From positions 1 to 64,000 of the forward strand of contig CAYWJO010000007.1 of assembly GCA_964458565.1 (NCBI GenBank): 64,000 bases of DNA. The letters are read 5' to 3'. Position numbers and translations under genes: made by a program. The notes beneath the pieces are model-generated. The model worked only from the letters and a program-made list of their open reading frames with translations, searched no databases and was not told the origin of the DNA. Origin of the DNA: an uncultured archaeon. Lineage in GTDB: Archaea > Asgardarchaeota > Thorarchaeia > Thorarchaeales > Thorarchaeaceae. Below, in pieces: positions 60,231 through 64,000 of this stretch. The first letter of the stretch is position 1. The number at the start of each line of letters is the position of its first letter.

Positions 60231-61151
60231 ATGACTACCAAGATGCGCTCGTTTCATTGGAAGGATGACTTTGAATTAGTAAAGTCCTTTCTAATTGAGA
60301 CATTTGAGTTGACTCCGTACCACAACTGGATTCCTTCAAGACTCGAAAATGTAAGATTTGGTCCTTGTGGGCCCGAATACCAAGATGAAGAGGACGAATA
60401 TATCAAAATTTGGGAGGAAATTACAGATTTAGGTACAAAGATAATAGCTGTATCCTATATGAAACCATCACTGGAATGTTGGATTCATACACATCCTGAT
60501 TACAAGCACGTTGAGAGAGAGATCATTCTCTGGACTGAGAATCATGCAAAAGAGATGAAACCCGATGCAGGTGAACGAAAAATCAGCTTCATCACGCGTG
60601 ACATAGATGAGAAGCGCGTTTCACTATTGAACGAAATGGGTTATCAAGAGATTGAGCTATATGGAGACTTACAAGTACGCCCTACTGATTTACCTGCTCC
60701 TGATTATACAGTGCCTGATGGATTCTCGATCACACACGCTCTCATGGAGCAAGATTTTGAGAAATACACAGAAGTACAAGGATCTGTCTTTCCACACTGC
60801 AAAAATATGACTAAGAAGTTGCTGATGCATTATGCTTCAGCTTCGTTCTACAACGCAGAACTTGATATTGTAGCTGTAGCTCCAGATGGCAGGTTTGCTG
60901 CATTCTGTACAGTGCGAATAGATCCCGTAAGCAAAATCGCTGAACTAGAACCCGTTGGTACAAATCCTGAGTTCAGGAAATTGGGCCTTGCGAGAGCTGT
61001 GGTACTAGAGGGACTACATCGTGTTAAGAAATACAATCCTTCCGCGATATGCATACCTGGTGCTGCAGCGACTGAGGGGGCGCGGAATCTCTACAAATCA
61101 GTTGGTTTCCAAATAATCGGTGGCGAATACCTCTGGAATAAGACGATTTAG
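60231..61151 (+). CDS. Tandem GNAT acetyltransferase
   Basis: EPVGT.PEFRKLGLARA, LYKSVGF. Confidence 0.9.
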   Translation: MTTKMRSFHWKDDFELVKSFLIETFELTPYHNWIPSRLENVRFGPCGPEYQDEEDEYIKIWEEITDLGTKIIAVSYMKPSLECWIHTHPDYKHVEREIILWTENHAKEMKPDAGERKISFITRDIDEKRVSLLNEMGYQEIELYGDLQVRPTDLPAPDYTVPDGFSITHALMEQDFEKYTEVQGSVFPHCKNMTKKLLMHYASASFYNAELDIVAVAPDGRFAAFCTVRIDPVSKIAELEPVGTNPEFRKLGLARAVVLEGLHRVKKYNPSAICIPGAAATEGARNLYKSVGFQIIGGEYLWNKTI

Positions 61152-61313: not shown

Positions 61314-61419
61314 GGGCCCGTGGCATAGCCTGGTGAAATCGACCACGGTCATTTCGGGTTTTTATTGCGCCGCTCTGATAAGGCGGATGTCGGGTGTTCA
61401 AATCACCCCGGGCCCACCA
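61314..61419 (+). tRNA. tRNA-Ile(GAT) with D-loop intron (about 61335-61360); CCA encoded
   Basis: GGGCCCG/CGGGCCC acceptor stem; CCGCT-CT-GAT-AA-GGCGG; hairpin insert with BHB-like ends. Confidence 0.9.
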
Positions 61420-61486
61420 CTTTCTATTGAATTGAACCCAATCCTTTTTCACAAAGTACAACTCATGTTATTTGCTGTTGTTTGCT

Positions 61487-62332
61487 ATGACAAAGTCTAA
61501 CAATTTACCAGTAGTCATTGATATTAGCACACGTCTAACAATGGTTGGTTTTGCAGGAGAAGTAGCTCCACGTTTCGTTTGGCCCACTGTTGTTGGATAT
61601 TCAATAGATCATAGTATGATAGATAGTGATTCCTCAGTTCCTTACAAGATCGGCAAGTATGCATTAGACTCGTTATCCCCTATGCTAGTCTATCCGTTAA
61701 AGGCTGGAATCATCGAAGATTGGGATGCAATTGAGGCTATCTTGGCATTTACTTTCAAATCACTTGAAATCAAATCTTCTGAGAGTAAAGTTTTGATAAC
61801 AGAATCAATATCTTCTCCCCCTGAAACTCACCAACATCTGATGCAATTGATGTTTCATAAATTCGGTGTGAGTCATCTCTACGTGACACTTCGACAGGTA
61901 CTCGCTCTATATGCTGTCCGGAAAGGATCAGGTGTTGTCATCGATTTCGAGCCAGACTATGCATTAATCGTACCAATATTCGAAGGTCTTGCCATTCCAC
62001 ATGTAAAAGAAATCCTGAATCTGCCGGTCATAACGGGATTTGAGCTTTCGTTTCTTGCAGAACGATTAATAGCTGCAGTTGAGAATACAAATCCAGACAT
62101 CTACGATGATTTATACAGCAACATTGTACTTACGGGTAGTTCTACAACAACACCTCAATTCAGAGAGAGCCTTGAGAAAGAGATTGCTGAACGGATAGCC
62201 TCGGATAGAAACTTCTCAATAATTGATATTCCAGAAAAGCTCTACATGGCTTGGATTGGAGGGAGCAGGTTAGCAAATGTATCATCATTCAATGAGGTAT
62301 GGATGAGTCGTACTGAATTCACACAGAAATGA
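61487..62332 (+). CDS. Divergent actin-family protein lacking subdomain 4
   Basis: GFAGEVAPRFV.PTVVG, YP...GII.DWD, VLITE, VPIFEG.A.PH, LYSNIVLTG, WIGGS. Confidence 0.9.
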   Translation: MTKSNNLPVVIDISTRLTMVGFAGEVAPRFVWPTVVGYSIDHSMIDSDSSVPYKIGKYALDSLSPMLVYPLKAGIIEDWDAIEAILAFTFKSLEIKSSESKVLITESISSPPETHQHLMQLMFHKFGVSHLYVTLRQVLALYAVRKGSGVVIDFEPDYALIVPIFEGLAIPHVKEILNLPVITGFELSFLAERLIAAVENTNPDIYDDLYSNIVLTGSSTTTPQFRESLEKEIAERIASDRNFSIIDIPEKLYMAWIGGSRLANVSSFNEVWMSRTEFTQK

Positions 62333-62386: not shown

Positions 62387-64000
62387 CTAGAACATACCAC
62401 TCAACCACTGGTGAATATGCGCAATAACAGGAAGGAAGAGTGTAGCAGTCAGGGAAATCACGACAAGCAAAGTATTGATTGATGGGCCTGCAGTGTCTTT
62501 GAATGGGTCGCCCACCATATCTCCACGTACTGAGTTCCGGTGTATTTGATCATATCGTGGGTGGTCATGGTCATACTCAGGAGACTCAATCATCTTCTTT
62601 GTATTATCCCAAGCCCCTCCAGCATTACTCATCAATAGGGCCATGATAAAGCCGACCAAGACTGCACCACCAAGATATCCACCAAGCGCTTCAAGCCCCA
62701 AGATTGAACCAGTTAAAATTGTAACACCTATTACGATGATAGTAGATGGCATGAGTTCTCTTATAGCGCCAGATGTTGCTATTTCAATACATTTGTCATA
62801 ATCTGGTTTTGAGGTTCCTTCAAGAATACCAGGATCTACGCGGAACTGTCTACGAATCTCTTCAATCATTCGTCCTGCATTACGATCAACACCAAGAATG
62901 AGCATCGCAGTAAATGTAATTGGCACTAACGCTCCGATGAATGCACCCGCCAAGATGAATGGATCTGCTATATTGACAATAATCTCTTCTCCAATGAGCA
63001 TCTCCGCTGCTTCAACAAATGCTGCAAATAAGGCAAGAACGGATATAGCTGCAGACCCAATAGCAAATCCCTTTGTGATTGCCTTAGCCGTATTACCTGC
63101 TGCATCTAATTTATCACAAGCTATAATGGCTTCTTCTGAAGCATTCGATTGTTCAATAATACCTCTCGCGTTATCAACAATAGGTCCATAGCTATCAGAG
63201 CTCATGGTAAGTCCATTTGTTGCCAGGAGTCCAACTGCAGCAATTGCTACCGCATAAATTCCCCCCATCCAACCTCCAAGTCCCAGAGATGTTGTTGTCG
63301 AACCGAGGATGAATGATGCCACAAGTGCTACAATAACTCCAATTACTGAAGGTACGGCACTGAGAAGACCGTATGAATATCCTGACAGTATGAGGTTCGC
63401 TGTGCTCTTCTCAGCATTTTCTACCATATTCCTTACTGGTTGAAATCCGAAGAGACCTTTATCATTTGTAAAGACATCAGAGGTGAATCCTATAAACACA
63501 CCAGCAAGTAGTCCAAAGATTGCAGAGGCTGCAATTACAATATCAATTCCAAGAATGAGAATTACAGCTACAACCAATACACCAAAGAGAATAGTTGTTA
63601 TGTAAGTGCCTCTGTTAAGGGCTGGACCAGGATCATCCTGTTCATTAGGTCTTACCAAATAAACTCCAATCACTGATGCGATGGTACCTAATGCTGCTAT
63701 TACTAGAGGCAGGAGTCCAAAGGCGTATGGTAATGCAAATGTTGCATCAAGTCCTGCTCCTAGAAGGGCAGCAGCCAGAATTGCGGCGACATTGCTATCG
63801 AAGATGTCTGCACCTGTTCCAGCAACATCTCCCACGTTGTCGCCAACAGCGTCTGCAATTGCCGCAGGATTTCTCGGGTCATCCTCTGGAATGTGCTGCT
63901 CGATTTTACCAACAATGTCTGCTGACATATCCGCAGTTTTGGTAAAGATTCCTCCACCTGCTTTTGCAAACAGCGCCACAGTACTCGCGCCAAATGAAAA
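62387..64000 (-). CDS. hppA: Membrane ion-translocating pyrophosphatase (5' part outside the window)
   Basis: GGGIFTKTAD, EDDPRN, DAVGDNVGD, GDPFKDTAGP; GNTAKA lysine marks the K+-independent type. Confidence 0.95.
   Translation of the reverse strand, partial: FSFGASTVALFAKAGGGIFTKTADMSADIVGKIEQHIPEDDPRNPAAIADAVGDNVGDVAGTGADIFDSNVAAILAAALLGAGLDATFALPYAFGLLPLVIAALGTIASVIGVYLVRPNEQDDPGPALNRGTYITTILFGVLVVAVILILGIDIVIAASAIFGLLAGVFIGFTSDVFTNDKGLFGFQPVRNMVENAEKSTANLILSGYSYGLLSAVPSVIGVIVALVASFILGSTTTSLGLGGWMGGIYAVAIAAVGLLATNGLTMSSDSYGPIVDNARGIIEQSNASEEAIIACDKLDAAGNTAKAITKGFAIGSAAISVLALFAAFVEAAEMLIGEEIIVNIADPFILAGAFIGALVPITFTAMLILGVDRNAGRMIEEIRRQFRVDPGILEGTSKPDYDKCIEIATSGAIRELMPSTIIVIGVTILTGSILGLEALGGYLGGAVLVGFIMALLMSNAGGAWDNTKKMIESPEYDHDHPRYDQIHRNSVRGDMVGDPFKDTAGPSINTLLVVISLTATLFLPVIAHIHQWLSGMF

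What the first reader, a model, noticed from the sequence alone, without database searches (positions are those of the whole stretch)
61487..62332. 'Three-subdomain' Asgard actin: clean deletion of subdomain 4 and degenerate phosphate loops
Seen: the 281-aa ORF is colinear with actin up to VPIFEGLAIPHVKEILNL (actin ~163-180). After about 8 residues it resumes at the helix before LYSNIVLTG (actin ~274 onward), so about 90 residues (subdomain 4 plus the hydrophobic plug) are missing in frame. The nucleotide motifs are altered: DNGSG is DISTR, DSGDG is DFEPD, SGGTT is TGSST. Established: SD2/SD4 form the pointed face, and SD1/SD3 form the barbed face that binds profilin and gelsolin, both present in Asgards. 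Inference: a non-polymerising, probably nucleotide-poor actin that could cap pointed ends or act as a decoy for actin regulators, i.e. an uncharacterised component of the Asgard cytoskeleton.
Basis: partly seen in the sequence, partly recalled or inferred. Interest (0 to 1): 0.8.

Follow-up and report, generated by a model that had tools for sequence, protein, structure and literature searches.

The report
Rare three-lobed pseudo-actin of Thorarchaeota
A few Thorarchaeota (Asgard archaea) carry a second, shortened actin gene that has lost one of actin's four lobes and rebuilt its ATP pocket; selection keeps it, but the surfaces it would need to cap filaments or decoy actin regulators are poorly conserved, so its job is still open.

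Summary
The 281-aa ORF lacks 83 actin residues (176-258; about 181-263 by structural register), which is subdomain 4. The hydrophobic plug is retained, not deleted. This is not private decay or misassembly: 12 sequence clusters (40-67% identity) share the deletion, dN/dS is 0.16, and a family member folds confidently (pLDDT 88.5). The gene is a rare accessory: 2 of 400 Asgard genomes, and five known loci lie just downstream of tRNA-Ile. It probably derives from Thorarchaeota's own actin; trees lean that way but are unresolved. The phosphate and metal site carries near-invariant replacements (G15R, K18M, Q137R, G156E, D157P, K336L) and evolves slowly, pointing to a nucleotide-free, self-locked pseudo-actin (inferred). 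The barbed-face cleft needed for capping or for binding gelsolin evolves faster than matched sites and is truncated in several members, which weakens the cap/decoy idea. Loss of subdomain 4 alone does not preclude filaments: bacterial AlfA lacks it and polymerises. No binding, expression or ATP test was possible. The scan noted this stretch before and reported SD4-less actins in other genomes (not tested here). The genome's main actin has a 30-nt intron, also already noted by the scan.

The parts
61487..62332 (+). Gene of the 281-aa subdomain-4-less pseudo-actin
61520..61543 (+). Phosphate-1 loop, rewired (D11 kept; N12I, G15R, K18M)
   Evidence: residues 12-19
61892..61894 (+). Arg136 in place of actin's catalytic Gln137, invariant in all 12 clusters
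61943..61960 (+). Phosphate-2 loop rewired to DFEPDY (D154 kept; G156E, D157P)
62006..62026 (+). Deletion junction where 83 codons (subdomain 4) are missing; the exact register is uncertain by about 5 residues
62024..62047 (+). Retained hydrophobic-plug segment (actin 264-271)
62132..62152 (+). Adenosine motif altered (G302S, M305T)
62330..62332 (+). Early TGA at a Gly codon of the closest relatives; trims about 9 C-terminal residues in this copy
61438..61486 (+). Upstream element conserved in 5 loci of the family (CCAA..T-tract..AAGT, then GCTGTTGTTTG before ATG), also where the upstream neighbour is not the tRNA; promoter-like by inference
61314..61419 (+). tRNA-Ile(GAU) with a 28-nt D-arm insertion (intron); marks the variable slot in which the gene sits

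Best explanation
The gene encodes a stable three-subdomain pseudo-actin that arose, most likely from a duplicate of Thorarchaeota's own actin (Lokiactin), by one in-frame loss of subdomain 4. It persists as a patchy accessory gene. Shown: the deletion, the family, purifying selection, foldability and the conserved rebuilt cleft. Inferred: the cleft no longer needs Mg-ATP. An Arg at position 137 takes the metal/gamma-phosphate place between the retained Asp11 and Asp154, Glu156 can pair with Arg15 across the cleft, and Met18, Pro157, Thr305 and Leu336 fill the rest, locking the two domains in one state. The protein would then be a non-cycling monomer that does not co-assemble into F-actin-type filaments. 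It would work as a passive binding partner through its rebuilt cleft and/or the retained subdomain-3 patch (H173, plug 264-270, D286-D291), not through the canonical gelsolin/WH2/D-loop cleft. The partner is not identified; a component of the cell's own actin system is my best guess (about 1 in 3).
For: Identical 83-residue gap in 12 clusters. dN/dS 0.161 with synonymous sites near saturation; about 0.26 on this copy's own branch (my arithmetic). AlphaFold model of member P0275: pLDDT 88.5, pTM 0.87; actin fold over the whole chain, Z about 31, rmsd 1.7-2.6 A. Former nucleotide cleft evolves at 0.55 against 1.06 elsewhere (p=2e-5; none of 5000 matched draws as low) although its residues differ from actin's. 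Barbed cleft 1.22, longitudinal contacts 1.28, D-loop 1.37. The family profile scores Thorarchaeota actins (174-182 bits) above all other Asgard actins (172 or less). Without other long branches the ML tree makes the family sister to Thor actin and rejects a eukaryote-sister position (AU p=0.003-0.005). Same slot beside tRNA-Ile in five loci; the same slot in 20 other Thorarchaeota lacks the gene (two of those contigs end early).
Against: No experiment, expression data or complex model. The salt-bridge reading rests on actin geometry from my own knowledge, because model coordinates could not be inspected. Cleft residues are partly buried, so slow rates may reflect folding alone, and surface sites are expected to be faster; the matched null only partly corrects this. 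The interface residue sets are from my knowledge of actin complexes. The subdomain-3 patch was picked after the fact. The confident model used an alignment containing full-length actins (family-only model pLDDT 63.7). With long-branch taxa included the origin is unresolved (AU p=0.11-0.28 for the Thor-sister tree).
Confidence: 0.55

Rival explanations
1. Pointed-end cap or filament terminator: it docks by its barbed face on the pointed end of Lokiactin filaments and, lacking SD4, accepts no further subunit, like Arp11 in dynactin.
For: The geometry fits. The plug and the H173/D286-D291 patch are kept. It probably derives from the host actin. Arp10/Arp11 terminates the Arp1 filament (PMC3583065).
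Against: Barbed longitudinal contacts are relaxed (rate 1.28, matched P=0.026). G146 is R/K/Q, T148 and G168 are variable, and C374/F375 are absent in all members aligned. Three members stop at about actin 349 with genuine stop codons. Absent from 84 of 86 genomes of the family searched, most of which carry near-identical actin. Arp11 keeps subdomain 4 (PMC8047447).
Confidence: 0.17
2. Decoy or bait: a nucleotide-free actin mimic that soaks up gelsolin/profilin or an actin-targeting foreign protein (viral or competitor).
For: Patchy presence in tRNA-adjacent variable slots. Fast-evolving surface. The host has a two-domain gelsolin. The profilin patch is not significantly relaxed (P=0.17). An earlier scan note reports an ATP-dead actin bait in another Asgard (e1-5460842, untested).
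Against: The gelsolin/WH2 cleft is the most conserved surface of Asgard actins (rate 0.28) but is relaxed here (1.22, P=0.018). A decoy should preserve it. No defence or mobile genes recur among the neighbours.
Confidence: 0.13
3. AlfA-like route: it binds a nucleotide or another phosphate-bearing ligand in a new mode, and may form its own non-canonical polymer.
For: AlfA lacks subdomain IIb, binds ATP in a new way and polymerises (10.1101/186080); it appears in the fold search (6f95, Z 15.8, rmsd 3.7, 231 aligned). The rebuilt cleft holds conserved R15, K72, R137, D11, D154 and a Ser/Thr run.
Against: AlfA keeps the phosphate motifs and binds the phosphates as other actins do. Here the glycines that make room for phosphates are replaced by Arg, Glu, Pro and Asp, and K18 by Met. 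Candidate filament surfaces are the fastest-evolving.
Confidence: 0.12
4. A decaying duplicate with no function.
For: Rare. This copy has a premature stop and a long terminal branch. C-termini are ragged in the family.
Against: dN/dS 0.16 across saturated synonymous divergence, no internal stops or frameshifts in 12 clusters, invariant novel residues, conserved upstream element.
Confidence: 0.03

Closest known systems
Lokiactin / eukaryotic actin (Pfam PF00022; best solved relative 'HC1 actin', PDB 9wc4, E=2e-46)
   Same: Fold of subdomains 1-3, collinear sequence, plug; about 38-41% identity to Asgard actins
   Different: Subdomain 4 absent; phosphate, metal and adenosine residues replaced; barbed cleft relaxed; patchy rather than universal (Lokiactin is in all Asgard classes, PMC9834061)
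AlfA of Bacillus subtilis plasmid pLS32 (PDB 6f95; bioRxiv 10.1101/186080, 10.1101/190744)
   Same: Actin-fold protein lacking subdomain IIb (= SD4), replaced by a short loop
   Different: AlfA is a distant plasmid-segregation actin that keeps the phosphate motifs, binds ATP and polymerises; Z only 15.8 against about 31 for actins/ARPs, so the loss is independent
Arp10/Arp11 of dynactin
   Same: Divergent actin paralogue; model for a filament-terminating role
   Different: Arp11 retains subdomain 4 (PMC8047447) and works within a pointed-end complex; no such partner genes recur here; Z 25 (5adx_J), below actin
Asgard actin-related paralogues (e.g. three in Ca. L. ossiferum, PMC9834061)
   Same: Divergent, patchily distributed second actins
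   Different: The other Asgard actins and paralogues aligned here keep SD4; the family is a separate clade (100% support)

Membership tests
Actin family (PF00022) | Profile match above the curated cut-off | tested here: met
   190 bits against cut-off 27
Actin family (PF00022) | Actin fold | tested here: met
   Model of P0275 pLDDT 88.5; Z 30.9-31.8 to actin/ARPs
Conventional actin / Lokiactin | Four subdomains | tested here: not met
   83 residues of SD4 absent in all members
Conventional actin / Lokiactin | Phosphate-1, phosphate-2, Q137 and adenosine motifs | tested here: not met
   G15R, K18M, Q137R, G156E, D157P, G302S, K336L
Conventional actin / Lokiactin | ATP-dependent polymerisation | not testable with these tools
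   Needs biochemistry
Conventional actin / Lokiactin | Descent from the Lokiactin clade | tested here: inconclusive
   Favoured without other long branches (AU rejects the eukaryote-sister tree, p=0.003); not resolved with them
AlfA-type IIb-less actins | Lack of subdomain IIb | tested here: met
AlfA-type IIb-less actins | Intact phosphate motifs binding ATP | tested here: not met
AlfA-type IIb-less actins | Plasmid partition locus with adaptor and centromere | tested here: not met
   Chromosomal housekeeping context
Arp10/Arp11 pointed-end cappers | Conserved barbed face that docks on a filament end | tested here: inconclusive
   Sequence constraint relaxed, SD3 patch kept; no complex model obtained
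Arp10/Arp11 pointed-end cappers | Orthology to Arp10/11 | not tested
   No Arp11 sequence in the trees; it ranks below actin in the fold search

The most novel reading that the evidence does not exclude
A prokaryote-born actin regulator made from actin itself: an SD4-less, ATP-independent paralogue that terminates or laterally poisons Lokiactin filaments, convergent with Arp11. It would be one of several independent SD4 losses in the actin family proper (Thorarchaeota here; bacterial actins of eukaryotic origin; a Loki family reported by the scan), making three-lobed pseudo-actins a recurrent regulator design.
Probability: 0.2. Interest if true: 0.8.

Novelty: new variant of a known kind. Interest (0 to 1): 0.55.

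Why it matters
It is a natural, selection-tested deletion of a whole actin subdomain in a eukaryote-type actin. It offers a ready reagent to ask what subdomain 4 and the nucleotide contribute to folding, and how actin-related proteins arise from actin duplicates. I found no paper describing it (the library is limited). Its rarity means it is not a core part of the Asgard cytoskeleton, which caps its weight for eukaryogenesis unless a regulatory activity is shown.

Tried and rejected
The metagenome contig scan returned nothing; the genome scan added only the already known Thorarchaeota locus. A hidden intron rescuing the short C-termini of P0007-P0009 was considered: no actin-like continuation in any frame. 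Subdomain 4 supplied in trans was considered: no separate SD4-like ORF in the genome besides the main actin. A conserved partner gene: none; neighbours vary. Pfam profilin was not found in this genome, but the search rang nowhere, so this is uninformative. The sigma-70 promoter scan was at chance level and is unsuited to archaea. The careful treekit searches did not finish; their quick trees put the family next to long branches, probably by attraction. ESM Atlas gave only ordinary actins. A 40-genome scan of another Asgard family for SD4-less actins was cut off before weak hits, so the scan's Loki report stays untested.

Full report
Observation. Window 61487-62332 (+) is an open frame of 281 codons. 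It matches Pfam Actin at 190 bits in two stretches, and its best solved relative is 'HC1 actin'. Mapped on actin numbering, it lacks residues 176-258, 83 in all. The AlphaFold models place a strand at residues ~174-177, where actin has strand 176-179, so the true register may be about 181-263; this would coincide with the usual boundary of subdomain 4 (181-269, my knowledge). Either way the segment after the junction is actin 264-271, the hydrophobic plug, with P264, G268 and E270 kept. The three motif changes are as stated. This copy also ends about nine residues earlier than its closest relatives, at a TGA where they have Gly.

It is a family, not an accident. The identical protein is on four more contigs from separate samples. 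Eight clusters at 47-67% identity and 264-290 aa came from the first search; three more came from later searches. All twelve share the 83-residue gap. Named members are Thorarchaeota, and the neighbours of another are 80-84% identical to this genome's eIF2-gamma, RpoE and S6e; several short contigs are unassigned. Pairwise dN/dS is about 0.08-0.28 with synonymous sites near saturation. A codon model gives 0.161, lnL -6539.1 against -6928.2 for dN/dS=1. This copy's own branch is about 0.26 (arithmetic). A model of the intact member P0275, guided by an alignment that included full-length actins, has pLDDT 88.5 and pTM 0.87 and superposes on actin and ARPs over the whole chain (Z about 31). The family-only model was weaker (63.7).

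Distribution and context. Only 2 of 400 Asgard genomes, both among the 86 of this family, carry it; these are incomplete genomes, so this means 'not found in those searched'. Five loci lie just downstream of tRNA-Ile(GAU), which in Thorarchaeota generally follows a TIM-barrel (AP-endonuclease-like) gene and precedes an acetyl-CoA hydrolase gene. Twenty other Thorarchaeota lack the gene in this slot, two of them on contigs that end early. Members of the second subclade abut the end of a different tRNA-like sequence. No partner gene recurs. A short upstream element travels with the gene in five loci. It behaves as an accessory gene. The genome also has a conventional actin and a two-domain gelsolin.

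Origin. The family is one clade on a long stem. Its profile scores Thorarchaeota actins above all other Asgard actins, and it shares several Thor-specific residues (I82, F110, G128, L269), though not all. Without other long branches the ML tree makes it sister to Thor actin, and a eukaryote-sister tree is rejected (AU p=0.003-0.005). With them neither placement is rejected. A duplicate of the host actin is likely but not shown.

What selection keeps. Residue sets come from my knowledge of actin complexes. The former nucleotide cleft is rebuilt, not eroded: D11 and D154 stay, while N12I, G15R, K18M, E72K, Q137R, G156E, D157P, V159Y, G302S, M305T and K336L are invariant or nearly so, and the ribose/base residues G182, R210, K213 and E214 are deleted. 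These sites evolve at 0.55 against 1.06 elsewhere. In contrast, the gelsolin/WH2 cleft, nearly frozen in Asgard actins (0.28), runs at 1.22 (matched P=0.018), the barbed longitudinal contacts at 1.28 (P=0.026) and the D-loop at 1.37 (P=0.055). The profilin set is not significantly changed (P=0.17), and the plug is if anything slower than expected. These P values are uncorrected over six sets. G146 becomes R/K/Q and G168 R/E/Y/H/N. Three members end at about actin 349 with true stop codons. A small subdomain-3 patch (I171, H173, D286, I289, H290, D291) is conserved; I noticed this after the fact. Burial confounds these contrasts and is only partly corrected by the matched null.

Mechanism. Best reading (0.55): a nucleotide-free pseudo-actin whose own side chains replace Mg-ATP (Arg137 between Asp11 and Asp154; Glu156 with Arg15). 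It would be a non-cycling monomer outside F-actin, binding an unidentified partner through the rebuilt cleft or the SD3/plug patch. The deletion, selection, fold and conservation pattern are shown; the locking, monomer state and partner are inferred. Pointed-end capping (0.17) fits the geometry but not the relaxed barbed face or the rarity. A decoy role (0.13) should preserve the gelsolin cleft and does not. An AlfA-like new ligand mode or polymer (0.12) has a precedent. Decay (0.03) is refuted for the family.

Comparison with what is known. AlfA of plasmid pLS32 lacks subdomain IIb, binds ATP in a new way and forms filaments, but keeps the phosphate motifs (10.1101/186080). SD4 loss is therefore precedented in the superfamily and does not by itself forbid polymerisation; here it is the loss of the phosphate motifs that argues against an ATP cycle. 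Arp10/Arp11 terminates the dynactin filament (PMC3583065) but retains subdomain 4 (PMC8047447). Asgard genomes have patchy actin paralogues beside the universal Lokiactin (PMC9834061); those I aligned keep SD4. I found no paper on an SD4-less Asgard actin. Similar deletions occur in a Leptospiraceae protein with a hydrophobic N-terminal extension and one relative, and in a Brasilonema actin. The Leptospiraceae pair has a eukaryote-type D-loop, which suggests an independent loss; in the quick tree it sat next to this family on a long branch, so common origin is not excluded. Earlier scan notes report SD4-less actins in other genomes (untested).

Verdict. A real, selected, rare three-subdomain pseudo-actin of Thorarchaeota: a new variant of a known kind. 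The cap/decoy function is possible but is the part least supported by conservation. Interest 0.55.

Noticed in passing
L001 (G000:C1:109635-109606, minus strand); same site in L034-L038: The genome's conventional actin carries a 30-nt insertion with an in-frame stop, shaped as a bulge-helix-bulge intron. Removing it restores FQKMW and a 379-aa actin. It is present in 6 Thorarchaeota genomes of 6 genera and absent in most others. Already reported by the scan (e1-5543346 and others).
   Followed up: partly
L090:235-269 (G038:C1, closed 1.4-Mb genome of another Asgard family): The actin there is frameshifted by a different, 34-nt hairpin insertion about 15 codons upstream of the Thor site; removal restores PERMYSVWIGG, and the congener G049 lacks it. 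Suggests an independent tRNA-type mRNA intron in actin.
   Followed up: partly
window 61314-61419 (+): tRNA-Ile(GAU) with a 28-nt insertion in the D-arm, missed by ARAGORN and only partly matched by Rfam; relatives have intron-less or differently interrupted copies.
   Followed up: partly
L065:6001-6969 (P0267) and L118:148-1095 (P0286): Leptospiraceae actin of eukaryotic type with a hydrophobic N-terminal extension, lacking subdomain 4 and the plug, with degenerate nucleotide motifs; one relative cluster at 49% identity. Possibly a secreted or membrane-anchored pseudo-actin.
   Followed up: partly
P0158 (Brasilonema bromeliae, WP_169154283.1): Cyanobacterial actin of 289 aa lacking about 64 residues of subdomain 4, with altered phosphate loops.
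   Followed up: no
L043 (G034:C366:4731-9468): Conventional actin followed directly by a divergent full-length actin paralogue and a further actin fragment in one Thorarchaeota genome.
   Followed up: no
window 62387-64000 (-): Convergent downstream gene that reads as a membrane-bound proton/sodium-pumping pyrophosphatase (recognised from sequence only; runs off the contig end); not a conserved neighbour of the mini-actin.
   Followed up: no
window 60231-61151 (+): GNAT acetyltransferase between the TIM-barrel gene and tRNA-Ile, not detected at this place in the other loci examined; another passenger of the variable slot.
   Followed up: no
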